64,000 bases of DNA from an uncultured Clostridia bacterium (lineage in GTDB: Bacteria; Bacillota; Clostridia; TANB77; CAG-508), in NCBI GenBank assembly GCA_934129785.1, contig CAKOWW010000003.1, positions 24,315 through 88,314 on the forward strand. Reading direction: 5' to 3'. Shown one piece after another: positions 28,067 through 33,370 of this stretch. Made by a program: the position numbers and the translations under genes. Within the stretch, counting starts at the first letter, position 1. Each line of letters opens with the position of its first letter. Below the pieces are notes generated by a model that ran no database searches, was not told the DNA's origin, and saw only the letters and a list, made by a program, of their open reading frames with translations.

Positions 28067-28693
28067 ATGATTGATAGAATCTGTGCCTTTTTAACTAAAA
28101 GAATTAGAAAAGAAATGCCTGAAATTGATGACGAAAGAGCAGAAGTGATTTTCTATGGATTACAAAATATAGTAGGAGAAATTCCCAAAATATTTATAAT
28201 GCTAGGAATAGCATATATATTAGGAATATTCAAATGGTCATTATTTACTTTTTTAGCATTATTCCCATATAAAGGAACATCAGGTGGAGTACATTTAAAA
28301 ACACATATAGGTTGCACAATATTTACAACAATGTTTTATTGTATAATACCGTTTGCATCCCAATATATAGTGTTACCACAAATTGCAAAATATTTAGTGA
28401 TAGCATGTGTTTGGATATTTGGAATGATAATGATAAAACTTTATGCACCAGCTGACACAGAAGATGTACCAATATTAGAAGAAGGCGTACGAAAGAAGAA
28501 AAGGATAGTGGCATATATAACATTTTCATTAGGGATGCTTGTTGCTCTAATAACAGATAATAATATGATTACAAATATTTTAGTATTAGCAAATTTATTT
28601 CAAACAATTACAATTACTAAATTTATTTATAAATTGACAAATAGTAAGTATGGCTACGAAGTATATGGAGATACTTCAACTGAAATAGTTTGA
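28067..28693 (+). CDS. agrB: accessory gene regulator B (AgrD-processing membrane peptidase)
   Basis: ~200 aa polytopic protein; N-terminal ERAEVIFYGLQ and catalytic GGVHLKTHIGC (His/Cys) typical of AgrB; ATG at 28067 after AAAGAGGTGA. Confidence 0.75.
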   Translation: MIDRICAFLTKRIRKEMPEIDDERAEVIFYGLQNIVGEIPKIFIMLGIAYILGIFKWSLFTFLALFPYKGTSGGVHLKTHIGCTIFTTMFYCIIPFASQYIVLPQIAKYLVIACVWIFGMIMIKLYAPADTEDVPILEEGVRKKKRIVAYITFSLGMLVALITDNNMITNILVLANLFQTITITKFIYKLTNSKYGYEVYGDTSTEIV

Positions 28694-28756
28694 TATAAAA
28701 TATGTACCGGTAATATTTTATGTTATATAGATTTTTATACTAAGGAGGGGATGTTT

Positions 28757-28876
28757 ATGTTAAAATTTTTAGCAAAAACAGCAGAAAAATACGCAAAAGC
28801 AACAAATACGGCATGCTTTGTTATGGGGATATTTCACCAACCTAAAATGCCAAAATGTATGATAAAAAAAGATTAA
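28757..28876 (+). CDS. agrD: autoinducing peptide precursor AgrD (MLKFLAKTAEKYAKATNTACFVMGIFHQPKMPKCMIKKD)
   Basis: 39-aa ORF 60 nt after agrB with SD AAGGAGGGG. N-terminal amphipathic helix, then a Cys-containing AIP region, then the HQP motif seen in clostridial AgrD. Below the ORF-track size cutoff. Confidence 0.65.
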   Translation: MLKFLAKTAEKYAKATNTACFVMGIFHQPKMPKCMIKKD

Positions 28877-29034
28877 TTATAAACTAGTTCATTGGTAAAT
28901 ATAGCTTGAAAATGATATATTTACCAATGATATAACTTAAAAGTTATATTTATATACAATCCAAGAAAGAAAGTACTTTAAAGGAAAACTATTTTTAGTA
29001 ACATCCTTTAAAGTATTTTTTTTATGTTTTAAAA

Positions 29035-29335
29035 AACTATTTCGGAAGAGAAGAAATAAAGTCTGGAACCAAAGAATTGGTAAGAAGTATATTAGAAGAA
29101 GAAATAACTGAAATAGATTTAGAACAAAATCAAATACTAGAAAAAACATAAAAGACGAAAAAATAGGAATACTAGACATAAGAGCTAAACAACAATACAA
29201 ACTGCGATGTAGAAATACAATTAGAAGACCAAAAGAACATAGAAAAAAGAGCGTTATATTATTGGTCAAAAATGTATATAGAAAGTATAAAAGCAAACGG
29301 ATTTGGAAAACATAGTGGTGGAAGAAAATTCGTGT
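29035..29335 (+). pseudogene. degraded fragment of an Rpn-family (PD-(D/E)XK) nuclease gene
   Basis: Out-of-frame pieces ...KIGILDIRAK... and CDVEIQLEDQKNIEKRALYYWSKMYIESIKANGFG match the conserved core of the Rpn/transposase_31 family (compare the intact copy at 24460). Multiple stops and frameshifts. Confidence 0.5.
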
Positions 29336-29414
29336 ACAAACTTTTAGTACAAATATAGAATATGCTCAGAGAAAAAAGAAAAATTATGAATTATAAAAAA
29401 TGGGAGAGAATAAA

Positions 29415-31134: not shown

Positions 31135-31262
31135 CTGAACAAAAATGAAATATTTGAAATAATAAAGGGTGAAAAAATCCTATATAATATTTAGAGGAAA
31201 AAGTAAAATATGTAGGAATATGTAATATATATGTGCTTTTGTGATAATAGAAAAAATATATG

Positions 31263-31302
31263 AAAGAGATATGAATTAAAGTTTAACTCATATCTCTTTT
31301 TT
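31263..31302. terminator. bidirectional terminator between convergent genes
   Basis: Hairpin aaagagatatgaattaaagtttaactcatatctctttt with T-runs on both strands. Confidence 0.6.
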
Positions 31303-31323
31303 ACAGAACTTTTTCAAAATAAG

Positions 31324-32673
31324 TTATTTTGTATAGATTTCTAATTGTTGTATAAATAGGTCGTTTTTTGTTTTAGATATTAACTTAACATTGTTATTTT
31401 TATTCACAAGTTTTTTTACTTCCCATAAGCCTAAGCCAGTGTGGTTTTCTTTACCACTTACACCTTTTTCAAATATTTTATCTATATTTAAGTCTTTATC
31501 ATTGTAAGTATTTTCGATAATAATTAACTGTACTGAGTTTTTAAAGTCATTTCTAAATGTTAAATTAATAATTTTATTATCACATTCAGATGCTGCTTCA
31601 ATTGCATTATCTAATAAAATTCCTAATATTCTTGCAAATTCATATATCTTCATGTTTAAAGTACTTAAATCTAATAAAAATGTCATATTAACTTTTATGC
31701 CTTTAGATTCAGCTTCGTAATATTTTTTAGTTAGTAAATTATAAATTCCATCATTATTTATTACTTCAGGATTTAATAAGTAAAGATTATTTACTTTTTG
31801 ACAATCATCTTCTAGTTGTTCATAATAGACTTTTAATCCTTCCATATCATTAGTTTTTATATAACCACCGATAGTTGTAACAATATTATCAAAGTCATGT
31901 TTAAGTCCTCTAACATTATCATGCAAAATACGTAAAGTATTATTATAAGATTCTGCACTTTCTAGTTTTCTTGTTGTTAATATTAATTTAAAGATTTTAG
32001 TAAAACTGTATAAACTTATTATAAAATATGCTAACAGCGAAATACTACTTAATAATGTAACAAATATTGGCAAAGTATCTATATAATAAAAAAATGTAAT
32101 AGAGTGAAAGATGATAGCAGCTATACCTAAAATCAAATTAGTATAGATAAGTAATTTTGTTTTTTTATCAATATTATCAATAAAAACTAATTTTAATTTT
32201 CTGCTTTTTATAATAGCAATAATCAATAGTACACAAATATATACTATAATAATGTACATCAATCTATAGATGGGTATACTAGATAATTCTTCACTAGATA
32301 TATTAAGTAATGTAATATACGGGTTTAGTATTAGAAAAATTACAATATTAAATCCAAATGCGGATGCCATAATTGCTGCGGTACTTTTAAAAAAAGAAAC
32401 CTTAAAAATAAAATAAGTTAAACCTATAACAAAAGCAAAGTTAAAGAATATATTATAAGGACTTGGTATAAAATACATACTAAATAGACTTACTAATCCC
32501 ATAGATATAACATATAGAATTTTCTGTTTTGAAGTAGTATTGATATTAAGTATTGCAGAAAAGAGCAATATTGTTAAAAGATTTTCTATTAATGTTGCAG
32601 GTACTGCTATTATATTCATTAGTACTTCATTTGGCGTACTAATTGCCATCCATAAATTATTCAAAATTTCCAT
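31324..32673 (-). CDS. AgrC/ComD-like (HPK10 family) membrane sensor histidine kinase
   Basis: About 6 N-terminal TM helices; H-box LRILHDNVRGLKHDFDNIV; GHKL ATPase N-box LLDNAIEA and G-box HTGLGLWEV. Confidence 0.75.
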   Translation of the reverse strand: MEILNNLWMAISTPNEVLMNIIAVPATLIENLLTILLFSAILNINTTSKQKILYVISMGLVSLFSMYFIPSPYNIFFNFAFVIGLTYFIFKVSFFKSTAAIMASAFGFNIVIFLILNPYITLLNISSEELSSIPIYRLMYIIIVYICVLLIIAIIKSRKLKLVFIDNIDKKTKLLIYTNLILGIAAIIFHSITFFYYIDTLPIFVTLLSSISLLAYFIISLYSFTKIFKLILTTRKLESAESYNNTLRILHDNVRGLKHDFDNIVTTIGGYIKTNDMEGLKVYYEQLEDDCQKVNNLYLLNPEVINNDGIYNLLTKKYYEAESKGIKVNMTFLLDLSTLNMKIYEFARILGILLDNAIEAASECDNKIINLTFRNDFKNSVQLIIIENTYNDKDLNIDKIFEKGVSGKENHTGLGLWEVKKLVNKNNNVKLISKTKNDLFIQQLEIYTK

Positions 32674-33370
32674 AAGATTTCAAAACCTCCAATAGTTCAG
32701 ATTTATATTTAGGTCCTACATCACAAGTAGAGCCATCTTTAAAAGTAATAACGCCAGAAACAGGTTCAACATTGCTAATTTGAGAAATATTAGCTACATA
32801 AGATTTATGACATCTCATATAGTTTTTTGGCAACTTATCTTGAAACTTATTAAAAGAACTATAAGTACCATAATCATTATTAGCAGTATGAAAAACAAGT
32901 TTCATGCCATCTCTTTTAATATAAGTAACTTCATCTGCGTCAACCAAAGTATTTTTATTATCAATTTTAATATATCTTCTAGGTGAAGTGTTAATATCCT
33001 CAAATAGCCTAACTATAGTATCTTCTAATCTGTCGTAAGTAATAGGTTTAGCAAGATAATCAAAAGTTCTAAATTTATAGGCAACCATAGCATACTCCAA
33101 ATGACCAGTTGTAAAAATAATATAAGTATTTCTATGCAAATTCCTAATAGATTTAGCTAATTCTAAACCACTTTTGTTTGACTTCAAATTAATGTCTAAT
33201 AAAACAACATCAACATTATTATTGTTAATAAAGTTTATCATATCAGTTGAATTTGAAGATTTAAAAGTTACGCGTGCGCTAAAATTATTTTTATTAAATA
33301 TATTTTCTAGCATTTTTTCTAAACGATCTAAAATGTTTATATTGTCATCACATAGTGCAAAATTAATCAT
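32657..33370 (-). CDS. AgrA-like response regulator (receiver domain plus LytTR DNA-binding domain)
   Basis: Receiver domain with phospho-acceptor Asp in VVLLDINL; C-terminal LytTR region YIKIDNKNTLVDADEVTYI...MRCHKSYVANISQI. Start set at MINFALCDDN (33370); overlaps the kinase gene by 17 nt. Confidence 0.75.
   Translation of the reverse strand: MINFALCDDNINILDRLEKMLENIFNKNNFSARVTFKSSNSTDMINFINNNNVDVVLLDINLKSNKSGLELAKSIRNLHRNTYIIFTTGHLEYAMVAYKFRTFDYLAKPITYDRLEDTIVRLFEDINTSPRRYIKIDNKNTLVDADEVTYIKRDGMKLVFHTANNDYGTYSSFNKFQDKLPKNYMRCHKSYVANISQISNVEPVSGVITFKDGSTCDVGPKYKSELLEVLKSYGNFE

What the first reader, a model, noticed from the sequence alone, without database searches (positions are those of the whole stretch)
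28067..33370. Split agr-type quorum-sensing locus: agrB-agrD on the plus strand, with the AgrC-like kinase and AgrA-like LytTR regulator convergent 2.4 kb away
AgrB (GGVHLKTHIGC catalytic His/Cys) and a 39-aa AgrD-like precursor carry the clostridial HQP motif after the Cys-containing region (...TACFVMGIFHQPKMPK...). They are followed by an Rpn-nuclease pseudogene and then the pilin-FGE gene. Only after these come an HPK10 kinase and a LytTR regulator on the opposite strand. This is not the canonical agrBDCA operon. If all four genes form one system, the genes in between may be part of its regulon or cargo. The AgrD C-terminal tail here is basic (KMPKCMIKKD) rather than acidic, which is unusual for AgrB recognition.
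Basis: partly seen in the sequence, partly recalled or inferred. Interest (0 to 1): 0.65.

Follow-up and report, generated by a model that had tools for sequence, protein, structure and literature searches.

The report
Agr quorum-sensing locus split by insertion
This is a complete peptide quorum-sensing (agr) gene set of an uncultured gut Clostridium whose two halves normally sit tail to tail but were pushed 2.4 kb apart here by a lineage-specific DNA insertion. The system itself is ordinary, except that its signal peptide probably forms an unusually large ring.

Summary
All four agr-type genes are present at the stated coordinates and intact: agrB, a 39-aa agrD, an AgrC-like kinase and a LytTR regulator. 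In 75 related species-level genomes (Clostridium sp. CAG:343/CAG:440-like gut MAGs), agrB-agrD and regulator-kinase are directly convergent, 31-363 bp apart (median 123). Only the window's lineage carries the 2.4-kb insert, which holds a frameshifted Rpn/PDDEXK_2 fragment and a split pilin-like gene. A second relative (L042) has an IS110-like fragment at the same junction. The "split" is therefore a secondary insertion at an insertion-prone spot, not cargo or regulon.

Three results tie the four genes into one system. Synteny is conserved. LytTR-type direct repeats (TTTYRTAAA-N12-TTTYRTAAA) lie about 90 bp upstream of agrB. The hypervariable AgrD core co-varies specifically with the kinase sensor domain.

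The basic AgrD tail is invariant in the clade and resembles other clostridial tails, so it is not anomalous.

Two features go beyond the finding. The Cys-to-HQP spacing predicts a 7-residue macrocycle (6 in a few relatives); only 5, 6 and 9 are described. The agrBD 3'UTR also holds a conserved structured RNA, supported by covariation and absent from Rfam.

The parts
27933..28002 (+). LytTR-type direct repeats in the agrB promoter. The proximal pair is TTTCATAAA (27973-27981) and TTTCGTAAA (27994-28002), 21-bp period. A third unit, TTTCATAAA, lies about 41 bp upstream (27933-27941).
   Evidence: This is the only exact match to TTTYRTAAA-N12-TTTYRTAAA in the 64 kb. The same pair lies 89-96 bp upstream of the agrB ATG in 65 of 79 relatives at <=2 mismatches, and there are only a handful of other hits in 1.15 Mb. 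A 41-nt tandem repeat was found. The columns are conserved in the alignment.
28008..28037 (+). agrBD core promoter: weak -35 (ATGAAA), 18-nt spacer, extended -10 (TGATAAAAT)
   Evidence: The TG-n-TA-a-AT block is conserved in >=90% of 79 upstream regions. Promoter scan scored 9/12 with TG. A weak -35 directly downstream of the repeats fits activator dependence (inference).
28067..28693 (+). agrB: membrane cysteine endopeptidase that processes AgrD (208 aa)
   Evidence: PF04647 E=5.4e-36. G73, G74, H76 and C83 are invariant in 78 sequences. They correspond to S. aureus G75/H77/C84 (PMC10196373).
28757..28876 (+). agrD: 39-aa autoinducing-peptide precursor. It has a conserved leader (1-19), Cys20, a hypervariable core FVMGIF (21-26) and a conserved tail HQPKMPKCMIKKD (27-39).
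   Evidence: TIGR04223 scores 27.5 bits against a cut-off of 19. Across 80 family members the entropy is 1.2-2.7 bits at positions 21-26 and about 0 at positions 27-32, with 73 distinct cores.
28890..28962 (+). Conserved structured RNA in the agrBD 3'UTR. P1 is 28890-28903 paired with 28916-28929. P2 is 28931-28936 paired with 28943-28948 (loop UUAAAA). An invariant single-stranded ACAAUCC lies at 28956-28962.
   Evidence: In alignment A1 (66 sequences), P1 has 11 of 14 pairs with double changes and 92.9% of all cells are paired, against 36-53% when partners are slid; 0 of 500 shuffles reach this. G.U cells number 46 against 5 A.C cells, so the RNA lies on the + strand. The CM scores 75.7 bits here and 20-30 bits on the - strand, and finds no other copy in 737 kb. 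There is no Rfam family.
28974..29023 (+). Terminator-like hairpin plus T-run after the 3'UTR element. It replaces the terminator used by relatives. The left edge of the insert lies at about 28965-28975.
   Evidence: Read directly from the sequence. In relatives, homology continues from ACAATCC straight into a different terminator stem. The simple terminator scan did not call it, because the stem is AT-rich.
29014..29320 (+). Rpn / PD-(D/E)XK transposase-family pseudogene fragment: N-terminal ~100 aa, two frame breaks, truncated
   Evidence: PF12784 E=5.1e-21 over profile positions 5-99 of 229, on the joined translation.
29415..31134 (+). Pilin-like-anchored surface-protein gene split into two ORFs (29415-30191 and 30304-31134; the second frame is open from 30180)
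   Evidence: A 572-aa reconstruction finds many intact homologs of 565-585 aa, up to 83% identical at 100% coverage. The same break is shared with copy 2 in L084. dN/dS of the two halves is 0.19 and 0.33. No family assignment passes a cut-off.
31263..31299 (-). Kinase-side intrinsic terminator, retained at the right edge of the insert
   Evidence: Terminator scan: 17-pair stem plus T tail. It is homologous to the AAAATAGATATGA...TCATATCTATTTT hairpins next to the kinase in L064, L070, L078 and L082.
31324..32673 (-). AgrC-like HPK10 sensor histidine kinase (449 aa)
   Evidence: HATPase_c_5 E=5.8e-16. NCBIfam AgrC E=3.4e-35 over the full length, below the equivalog cut-off. PDB hits are only S. 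aureus AgrC, with the H-box aligned. Hydrophobic segments fill residues 21-231. The sensor region has 35-48% mean pairwise identity against 70-93% for the catalytic part.
32657..33370 (-). AgrA-like response regulator (REC + LytTR, 237 aa). It is the first gene of the operon and overlaps the kinase start by 17 nt.
   Evidence: LytTR E=9.7e-19 and Response_reg E=7.3e-16. Full-length PDB match to ComE 4cbv.
33463..33491 (-). Near-consensus sigma-A promoter of the regulator-kinase operon: TTGACA-17-TATATT
   Evidence: Best promoter-like site in the region at 11/12. Both hexamers are conserved in >=90% of 68 relatives, and a conserved 5'UTR block TGGAAAAttAAGGtAAT follows.

Best explanation
The locus is one functional agr-type autoinducing-peptide system built as two convergent operons.

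- The regulator-kinase operon (agrA-agrC order) is read from a near-consensus sigma-A promoter, so receptor and regulator are made constitutively (inferred).
- agrB-agrD is read from a weak promoter preceded by LytTR-type direct repeats, so the phosphorylated regulator activates it and closes a positive feedback loop (inferred from sequence).
- AgrB (catalytic His76/Cys83) removes the conserved tail HQPKMPKCMIKKD from the 39-aa AgrD. It then cyclises the core through Cys20.
- In clostridial AgrDs with known or accepted products, cleavage falls immediately before the [H/Y][Q/E]P-x-x-P motif. On that basis the product here is predicted to be a 7-residue macrocycle, C-F-V-M-G-I-F. It could carry a short conserved exocyclic tail, or carry none and rearrange to a lactam.
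- The peptide is sensed by the polytopic sensor domain of the adjacent kinase.
- The 2.4-kb separation of the operons is a secondary, lineage-specific insertion. It holds an Rpn-family fragment and a member of a multi-copy pilin-like surface-protein family. It landed between the two terminators of the convergent junction and plays no part in signalling.
- The agrBD transcript also carries a conserved structured 3'UTR RNA of unknown role.

The confidence of 0.8 applies to 'one agr system plus a secondary insertion'. The 7-residue ring on its own I put at about 0.55.
For: Family assignments of all four proteins.

Synteny:
- 75 relatives have 31-363 bp (median 123) between the agrD stop and the kinase stop, with the same flanks (DAP dehydrogenase upstream; pdaA-yabP-yqfD downstream).
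- The insert occurs only in the window and L001-L003.
- An independent IS110-like insertion sits at the same junction in L042.

Autoregulation:
- The window has an exact repeat pair at 27973-28002, the only exact match in 64 kb.
- The pair is positionally conserved in 65 of 79 relatives.
- The regulator-kinase operon has a conserved TTGACA-17-TATATT promoter.

Ligand-receptor link:
- The AgrD core is hypervariable, with 73 distinct cores in 80 sequences.
- The kinase sensor domain is far more variable than the catalytic domain.
- Partial Mantel of core against sensor, controlling for catalytic domain and regulator: r=0.36, p<=0.0005.
- On a 24-genome subset r=0.37, p=0.0003. The neighbouring genes YqfD and hyp400 give r=0.12 and 0.07, not significant.

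Ring size:
- C. acetobutylicum AgrD reads ...CVLVTL|YEPKMPEELL, and the 6-residue product was confirmed by MS (PMC8251862).
- C. difficile reads ...CPWII|HQPK.
- Here the sequence is C+6 residues, then HQPKMP, in 76 of 80 AgrDs and C+5 in 4. The indel lies next to the Cys, and there is never a Cys, Ser or Thr five residues before HQP.
Against: - Nothing has been shown biochemically. The cleavage site, ring size, N-terminal trimming and binding of the regulator to the repeats are all inferred.
- The repeat unit is AT-rich and nearly palindromic in a 27% GC genome. Its assignment to the LytTR regulator rests on position, 21-bp periodicity and conservation only.
- Co-variation is moderate. Some genomes share identical cores yet have sensor domains 56-58% different (L029/L049, L025/L066).
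- The insertion replaced the native agrBD terminator, so expression in this lineage could be altered.
- The kinase and regulator score below NCBIfam's AgrC/AgrA equivalog cut-offs. This is expected for distant orthologs, but it is not positive proof.
Confidence: 0.8

Rival explanations
1. The AIP has the canonical 5-residue ring. AgrB cleaves two residues upstream of HQP to give CFVMG, and the extra residues belong to the released tail.
For: Five-residue rings are by far the commonest (Table 1 of PMC12312760). Positions 25-26 of AgrD are less variable (1.8 and 1.2 bits) than positions 21-24 (2.4-2.7 bits), as might be expected if they belonged to the recognition tail.
Against: In the clostridial precursors with known or accepted products, the ring ends directly before [H/Y][Q/E]P, whatever its size. 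In the four relatives with a 5-residue core, the deletion lies next to Cys and the C-terminal W-V-L stays aligned to HQP. A fixed 5-ring would therefore require a shifting cleavage offset. The last core residue is F/L/W/Y/V, like the C-terminal ring residues of known AIPs.
Confidence: 0.3
2. The intervening genes are cargo or regulon of the agr system. The pilin-like gene would be expressed by read-through from the autoinduced agrBD promoter, or be directly activated by the regulator.
For: The insert lies downstream of agrD on the same strand. The hairpin at 28974-29023 is AT-rich and was not called by the terminator scan, so some read-through is conceivable. Both halves of the pilin-like gene are under purifying selection, with dN/dS of 0.19 and 0.33.
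Against: The insert is absent from all 75 relatives with a readable junction. Paralogs of the pilin-like gene sit at other places in relatives, and in tandem in L084 far from any agr genes. There is no LytTR repeat pair within 2 mismatches upstream of 29415. The segment starts with a decayed Rpn fragment. A different mobile element occupies the same junction in L042.
Confidence: 0.08
3. The kinase/regulator pair responds to another signal, and agrBD is an orphan producer pair (as in C. perfringens or C. difficile agr1) that merely sits next to it.
For: Orphan agrBD loci exist in Clostridia. The kinase and regulator are below the AgrC/AgrA equivalog cut-offs. Identical AgrD cores occur with very different sensor domains.
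Against: Adjacency is universal across a clade whose AgrB identity falls to 63%. Core-sensor co-variation is specific: it is not seen with the catalytic domain, YqfD or hyp400. LytTR-type repeats sit in front of agrB. The best PDB and NCBIfam matches of the kinase are AgrC.
Confidence: 0.07
4. The insertion has disabled or is degrading the system in this lineage, leaving an agr-defective variant on its way to pseudogenisation.
For: The native terminator and the close convergent arrangement were lost. In some relatives (L057, L065, L073, L079) the kinase appears as split tblastn hits, suggesting agr-defective variants or assembly errors.
Against: All four ORFs are intact and full length. The promoter repeats match the consensus exactly. 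The 3'UTR RNA element is intact at 75.7 bits. The same sequence was assembled independently in two other metagenomes.
Confidence: 0.08

Closest known systems
Clostridium acetobutylicum-type agr (agrBD and agrCA as separate operons, 6-residue AIP CVLVTL)
   Same: Both have two transcription units instead of one agrBDCA operon and no RNAIII. The AgrD tail is the clostridial type, [H/Y][Q/E]PKMP... The macrocycle is larger than five residues. Both sit in spore-forming Clostridia.
   Different: Here the operons are convergent and the two-component operon runs regulator then kinase. No LanM-like CA_C0082 gene follows. The predicted ring has 7 residues rather than 6. The agrBD 3'UTR carries a conserved structured RNA.
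Staphylococcus aureus agrBDCA / RNAIII
   Same: The four protein families are the same, including the catalytic His/Cys of AgrB. The promoter carries LytTR direct repeats with a spacing of about 21 bp; the staphylococcal arrangement of 9-bp repeats with a 12-13-bp spacer is my own knowledge of Koenig et al. 2004. The AgrD core and AgrC sensor are hypervariable.
   Different: S. aureus has a single operon with a divergent RNAIII, an acidic AgrD tail with essential D33/E34 and a 5-residue ring. None of these applies here.
Clostridioides difficile agr1/agr2 and C. perfringens agrBD
   Same: The motif directly after the core is HQP(K) (C. difficile AgrD1 ...ANSTCPWIIHQPK). The tail is basic or mixed. 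The arrangement is non-staphylococcal, for example agrACDB in ribotype 027 (abstract of PMC3754575).
   Different: Those AIPs have 5-residue rings. agr1 and C. perfringens agrBD lack an adjacent kinase/regulator, whereas this clade always has one.
Enterococcus faecalis fsrBDCA (GBAP, 9-residue lactone ring)
   Same: It is an agr-family system whose macrocycle is larger than five residues.
   Different: It forms a lactone through Ser, has a single-direction operon with FsrD in frame with FsrB, and uses an unrelated core and tail.

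Membership tests
agr-type AIP quorum-sensing system (AgrB/AgrD/AgrC/AgrA) | AgrB-family membrane endopeptidase with the catalytic His...Cys motif | tested here: met
   PF04647 E=5.4e-36. H76 and C83, seven residues apart, are invariant in 78 sequences together with G73/G74. S. aureus H77/C84/G75 are given in PMC10196373.
agr-type AIP quorum-sensing system (AgrB/AgrD/AgrC/AgrA) | A short AgrD precursor directly downstream of agrB, with a leader, a Cys/Ser-containing core and a charged tail bearing the Pro motif | tested here: met
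   TIGR04223 scores 27.5 bits against a cut-off of 19. The 39-aa ORF starts 63 bp after agrB, has Cys20 and the P-K-M-P motif, and has a conserved leader and tail with a hypervariable core.
agr-type AIP quorum-sensing system (AgrB/AgrD/AgrC/AgrA) | HPK10-type kinase with a polytopic N-terminal sensor and a HATPase_c_5 catalytic domain | tested here: met
   HATPase_c_5 E=5.8e-16. Full-length match to the NCBIfam AgrC model at E=3.4e-35, below the equivalog cut-off. The only PDB relatives are S. aureus AgrC. Hydrophobic segments span residues 21-231.
agr-type AIP quorum-sensing system (AgrB/AgrD/AgrC/AgrA) | Response regulator with REC + LytTR DNA-binding domain | tested here: met
   PF00072 E=7.3e-16 and PF04397 E=9.7e-19. 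The AgrA model matches at E=6e-16, below the equivalog cut-off.
agr-type AIP quorum-sensing system (AgrB/AgrD/AgrC/AgrA) | Autoinduction: LytTR direct repeats in the promoter that drives agrBD | tested here: met
   Met at sequence level only. An exact TTTYRTAAA-N12-TTTYRTAAA pair lies at 27973-28002. It is positionally conserved in 65 of 79 relatives. Binding was not tested.
agr-type AIP quorum-sensing system (AgrB/AgrD/AgrC/AgrA) | Co-diversification of the AgrD core with the AgrC sensor domain (specificity groups) | tested here: met
   Partial Mantel r=0.36-0.37, p<=0.0005. Controls with the catalytic domain, YqfD and hyp400 are not significant. The effect is moderate and there are exceptions.
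agr-type AIP quorum-sensing system (AgrB/AgrD/AgrC/AgrA) | Production of a secreted cyclic (thio)lactone or lactam peptide that activates the kinase | not testable with these tools
   This needs MS of supernatants or heterologous agrBD expression, plus reporter assays.
Staphylococcal-type agr locus | Single agrBDCA operon with a divergent RNAIII effector | tested here: not met
   There are two convergent operons with separate promoters. No RNAIII or other Rfam match lies in 27000-34000.
C. acetobutylicum-type agrBD-agrCA-CA_C0082 cluster | Separate agrBD and agrCA units followed by a LanM-like gene, with a 6-residue ring | tested here: not met
   Separate units: yes. No LanM-like gene is present: the kinase and regulator are flanked by the insert (or by agrD) and by pdaA. 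The Cys-to-motif spacing is one residue longer than in C. acetobutylicum.
Rpn / PD-(D/E)XK transposase family (28937-29300 claim) | Match to the PDDEXK_2/Transposase_31 domain with an intact ORF | tested here: inconclusive
   The domain match is clear (PF12784 E=5.1e-21), but it covers only profile positions 5-99 of 229 and crosses two frame breaks. This is a pseudogene fragment, not a functional member.
FGE-sulfatase (PF03781) domain / type IV pilin-like N-terminus ('pilin-FGE gene') | A significant match to the FGE-sulfatase domain or fold, and a prepilin N-terminal methylation motif | tested here: inconclusive
   PF03781 E=0.0083 (16 bits against a cut-off of 23.3) on the C-terminal ORF only. 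Only 1 of 120 listed homologs has a precomputed PF03781 hit. The model of intact homolog P0121 (pLDDT 73, pTM 0.78) has no Foldseek PDB match, best E=0.26. The profile against the PDB gives PvdO at E=0.58 and geopilin at E=0.009. N_methyl scores E=0.033, below its cut-off.

The most novel reading that the evidence does not exclude
Two readings remain open.

1. The conserved structured RNA at the 3' end of the autoinduced agrBD transcript (P1, P2 and the invariant ACAAUCC) could be the system's riboregulatory output. That would make it a 3'UTR-borne functional analogue of staphylococcal RNAIII, in a group where reviews say no such RNA exists.

2. The clade's AIPs could be a new size class, with 7-residue macrocycles.
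Probability: 0.15. Interest if true: 0.7.

Novelty: new variant of a known kind. Interest (0 to 1): 0.4.

Why it matters
- As flagged, the finding is mostly ordinary: a complete agr system whose odd spacing comes from an insertion. This warns against reading function into gene neighbourhoods at junctions of convergent operons, which tolerate insertions.
- The comparative work does give a large, clean natural data set. About 80 species-level genomes carry 73 different AIP cores paired with their receptors, from uncultured gut Clostridia. This could serve studies of AIP-receptor specificity and synthetic-peptide work on gut communities.
- The work yields a testable prediction of a 7-residue AIP macrocycle. 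The 2025 primer I read (PMC12312760) describes only 5-, 6- and 9-residue rings.
- It also reveals a previously uncatalogued structured RNA tied to agrD.

Tried and rejected
- Rfam search of 27000-34000 at E<=10 found only the tRNA and spurious miRNA-hairpin matches. The 3'UTR element is therefore not a known family.
- RNAalifold on the gappy, AT-rich alignment gave almost no consensus energy (-0.6 kcal/mol) and recovered only 6 pairs. I defined the structure by eye and tested it with pair counts instead.
- I tested whether the 3'UTR RNA pairs with the conserved 5'UTR of the regulator-kinase mRNA. RNAduplex energies were no better than shuffles (mean z +0.15). No support.
- I looked for extra copies of the RNA element or of its P2 motif elsewhere. 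There were none in the window, the loci or the 737 kb searched with the CM.
- I looked for LytTR repeat pairs in front of the pilin-like gene, pdaA or the regulator operon. None was found within 2 mismatches; three 2-mismatch hits elsewhere are within chance expectation. A single repeat-like unit (TTTGTAAAT) upstream of the regulator's -35 is conserved, but there is no 21-bp partner.
- I asked whether the nearest relative, L004, carries a swapped agr allele (AgrB 89% against DAP dehydrogenase 99% aa). Nucleotide identity is similar in agrB (87-95%) and the flanks (93-94%), so there is no evidence for this.
- There was no PDB sequence relative for AgrB.
- Exact-sequence look-ups of the kinase and of P0138 found nothing.
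- No paper text contains this AgrD family's leader or tail strings.

Full report
**1. What is there**

The window is low-GC (about 27%). The region holds these genes on the + strand:
- agrB, 28067-28693. Pfam AgrB E=5e-36.
- agrD, 28757-28876, 39 aa. TIGR04223 scores 27.5 bits against a cut-off of 19.

On the - strand it holds:
- a response regulator with REC + LytTR domains, 33370-32657;
- a 449-aa kinase, 32673-31324. It overlaps the regulator gene by 17 nt and has a hydrophobic N-terminal half and a HATPase_c_5 catalytic domain.

The kinase's only relatives among solved structures are S. aureus AgrC (E=2.5e-25, H-box aligned). The regulator aligns over its full length with ComE. AgrB keeps G73, G74, H76 and C83 invariant in 78 sequences. 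These match S. aureus G75/H77/C84 (PMC10196373).

Between the agrD stop and the kinase stop lie 2447 bp:
- A fragment of an Rpn/PD-(D/E)XK transposase-family gene. It matches PF12784 at E=5e-21, covers only profile positions 5-99 of 229, and has two frame breaks.
- A gene for a protein with a pilin-like hydrophobic N-terminus, present as two ORFs, 29415-30191 and 30304-31134.

**2. Where it comes from, and what the relatives show**

Exact copies of AgrB occur on three metagenome contigs, one of which has the same overall layout.

A scan of one genome per species found 216 loci that encode a relative of AgrB. The best 80 (63-89% identity) are all uncultured gut 'Clostridium sp.' or Clostridia MAGs, including Clostridium sp. 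CAG:343 and CAG:440.

I mapped the window's proteins onto these loci. Wherever the flank was long enough, the order was the same: DAP-dehydrogenase gene ... agrB, agrD, then kinase and regulator on the opposite strand, then pdaA, yabP, yqfD. The distance from the agrD stop to the kinase stop in 75 loci is 31-363 bp, median 123.

The 2.4-kb segment has DNA matches only in the window's own lineage (L001-L003). Weak matches elsewhere are to paralogs of the pilin-like gene at other positions, often upstream of agrB.

One relative, L042, has an IS110-like transposase fragment where the kinase should begin.

The right end of the window's insert still carries a kinase-side terminator hairpin (31263-31299). 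It is homologous to those of relatives. The left end lies just after the conserved ACAATCC motif downstream of agrD.

Conclusion: the compact convergent layout is ancestral. The 'split' is a lineage-specific insertion between the two terminators of a convergent junction, a spot that has been hit at least twice.

**3. Are the four genes one system?**

Three independent lines of evidence say yes.

(a) Conserved adjacency. It holds across a clade in which AgrB identity drops to 63%.

(b) Promoter architecture.
- Upstream of agrB lies TTTCATAAA-N12-TTTCGTAAA (27973-28002). It is the only exact match to TTTYRTAAA-N12-TTTYRTAAA in 64 kb.
- A third unit lies 41 bp further upstream.
- An extended -10 (TGATAAAAT) with a poor -35 lies downstream.
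- The repeat pair sits 89-96 bp before the agrB ATG in 65 of 79 relatives. Apart from further repeat-like hits in the same agrB upstream region, only a handful of hits occur elsewhere in 1.15 Mb.
- Two 9-bp direct repeats with a 12-bp spacer is the known geometry of AgrA/LytTR sites (my own knowledge of S. aureus P2/P3).
- By contrast, the regulator-kinase operon has a near-consensus TTGACA-17-TATATT promoter, conserved in >=90% of 68 relatives.
- This fits a constitutive receptor and an autoinduced signal synthase.

(c) Co-diversification.
- AgrD has an almost invariant leader (M[LF]KFLAK.AEKYAK.TNT[AS]C).
- Its core is hypervariable, with 73 different sequences in 80 genomes and 1.2-2.7 bits of entropy per position.
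- Its tail is invariant (HQPKMP.SMIKKD).
- The kinase's sensor region (residues 21-200) has 35-48% mean pairwise identity, against 70-93% in the catalytic part.
- Core distance correlates with sensor distance after controlling for the catalytic domain and the regulator (partial Mantel r=0.36, p<=0.0005). It does not correlate with the catalytic domain itself.
- On a 24-genome subset, r=0.37 (p=0.0003) for the sensor, against 0.12 and 0.07 (not significant) for the neighbouring YqfD and hyp400 genes.
- The signal is moderate. Some identical cores are paired with very different sensors.

**4. Are the intervening genes regulon or cargo?**

The evidence is against it.
- The insert is absent from all relatives with a readable junction.
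- It begins with a decayed Rpn fragment.
- No LytTR repeat pair lies in front of the pilin-like gene.

The pilin-like gene belongs to a large family of intact proteins of 565-585 aa, up to 83% identical. The family occurs in tandem copies elsewhere, for example in L084, with no agr genes nearby.

The window's copy differs by 2 nt in length from an intact paralog at the break. The same break is present in L084 copy 2 (88% nt identity). Both halves show dN/dS of 0.19 and 0.33. So the split form is old and still constrained. It may be expressed as two polypeptides or through frameshifting. I therefore do not call it a dead pseudogene.

Its annotation as 'pilin-FGE' is only faintly supported.

**5. 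The AgrD tail and the ring**

The basic tail is the norm for this clade: net charge is +1 to +3 in 78 of 80 sequences. It resembles other clostridial tails, namely C. difficile ...CPWIIHQPK and C. acetobutylicum ...CVLVTLYEPKMPEELL. It contrasts only with the staphylococcal acidic tail, in which D33/E34 are essential.

The spacing is more interesting.
- In C. acetobutylicum the MS-confirmed AIP is CVLVTL. It ends directly before YEP-x-x-P.
- The accepted C. difficile and C. perfringens rings are five residues. The C. difficile ring ends directly before HQP. For C. perfringens I recall the precursor sequence only from memory.
- In this clade six residues separate Cys from HQP in 76 of 80 AgrDs, and five residues in 4. 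The indel lies next to the Cys.
- No Cys, Ser or Thr is ever positioned to make a 5-ring that ends before HQP.

If AgrB cleaves at the conserved position, the window's AIP is a 7-residue macrocycle, C-F-V-M-G-I-F. A 2025 primer lists only 5-, 6- and 9-residue macrocycles. I put this at about 0.55. The main alternative is a 5-ring, CFVMG, produced with a shifted cleavage site.

**6. An unexpected conserved RNA**

In most relatives, the short spacer between agrD and the kinase is not random sequence. It contains, in order:
- a 14-bp hairpin (P1);
- a 6-bp hairpin with a UUAAAA loop (P2);
- an invariant ACAAUCC;
- a terminator.

The window keeps P1, P2 and ACAAUCC (28890-28962).

On 66 sequences, 11 of 14 P1 pairs show changes on both sides. 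Overall 92.9% of cells pair, against 36-53% when partners are slid, and no shuffle of 500 reaches the observed values. Departures are G.U on the + strand (46 cells), not A.C (5 cells). The element is therefore an RNA on the agrBD transcript.

A covariance model finds it once per locus, always after agrD, and much more weakly on the opposite strand. Rfam has no matching family.

A subgroup of relatives lacks it: L005, L007, L018, L022, L029, L049 and L050.

Its role is unknown. A test for pairing with the regulator mRNA leader was negative. Because it is co-transcribed from the autoinduced promoter, it could act as an mRNA stabiliser or as a riboregulatory output. The second reading is speculative.

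**7. Comparison with known systems, and verdict**

All testable defining features of an agr-type system are met. The staphylococcal layout (single operon plus RNAIII) and the C. acetobutylicum cluster type (LanM-like gene, 6-ring) are not met.

Separate agrBD and agrCA operons and rings larger than five residues are already documented in Clostridia.

The locus is best filed as a new variant of a known kind. What is new:
- convergent operons in agrA-agrC order;
- a predicted 7-residue ring;
- a conserved 3'UTR RNA.

No paper text in the searchable library contains this AgrD family's leader or tail strings.

Noticed in passing
window 28890-28962 (+); same position in about 66 related loci (alignment A1): A conserved structured RNA lies in the agrBD 3'UTR: a 14-bp hairpin P1, a 6-bp hairpin P2 with loop UUAAAA, and an invariant ACAAUCC, followed by a terminator. 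It is supported by covariation and is strand-specific. Rfam has no match, and there is one copy per locus. It is absent from the subgroup L005, L007, L018, L022, L029, L049 and L050.
   Followed up: yes
window 27155-27831: tRNA-Met(CAT) lies at 27155-27231. A 54-nt, 89% identical copy of its 3' end lies 592 bp downstream (27778-27831), directly upstream of the agrB promoter. The close relative L004 has a single copy and lacks 27240-27777. The segment therefore looks like the remnant of an element integrated into the tRNA 3' end. It holds a 43-aa very hydrophobic ORF (27453-27584) followed by a hairpin (27583-27629).
   Followed up: partly
L058 5042-10558; also L026 and L053, and probably about 13 further loci where only pdaA residues ~1-135 are seen: In many relatives the sporulation gene pdaA, next to the agr locus, is interrupted after about residue 135 by an element of about 5 kb. 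In L058 the element encodes a HipA_C protein and a large serine recombinase (Resolvase, Recombinase and Zn_ribbon_recom domains) abutting the 3' half of pdaA. This resembles the skin-type intervening elements that are excised during sporulation. pdaA is intact in the window (33704-34495).
   Followed up: partly
L042 10917-11426: An IS110-like transposase fragment (- strand, 11181-11321) sits right after the agrD 3'UTR terminator, where the kinase gene lies in all other relatives. This is a second, independent insertion at the agrD/kinase junction.
   Followed up: partly
window 33371-33462 (- strand leader of the regulator-kinase operon): A conserved 5'UTR block, TGGAAAAttAAGGtAAT...GTC, lies downstream of the TTGACA-17-TATATT promoter. 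A single conserved repeat-like unit (TTTGTAAAT) lies just upstream of the -35. Both are conserved in 68 relatives; their function is unknown.
   Followed up: partly
L005, L007, L018 (15071-15787), L022, L029: A subgroup of relatives carries a second, orphan REC+LytTR regulator, 73-74% identical to the window's, between the agr regulator and pdaA. The same subgroup has a shorter AgrD tail (...MIK) and lacks the 3'UTR RNA element.
   Followed up: no
L057, L065, L073, L079 (kinase region): The kinase gene appears as two or three separate tblastn segments in these MAGs. This suggests frameshifts or stops, which could mean agr-defective variants, as are common in staphylococci, or assembly errors.
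   Followed up: no
window 29415-31134; L084 526-2244 and 4201-5917: The pilin-like surface-protein family is multi-copy and occurs in tandem in L084. One L084 copy shares exactly the same ORF break as the window's copy. Both halves are under purifying selection (dN/dS 0.19 and 0.33). This hints at a functional two-ORF or frameshift-dependent form rather than simple decay.
   Followed up: partly
window about 24460-25479 (from L001 6394-7413) and about 60916-60954: An apparently intact Rpn/Transposase_31 gene lies just upstream of the DAP-dehydrogenase gene. A short DNA match to the Rpn fragment recurs near 60.9 kb. Rpn-family genes are therefore multi-copy in this genome and may have mediated the rearrangement.
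   Followed up: no
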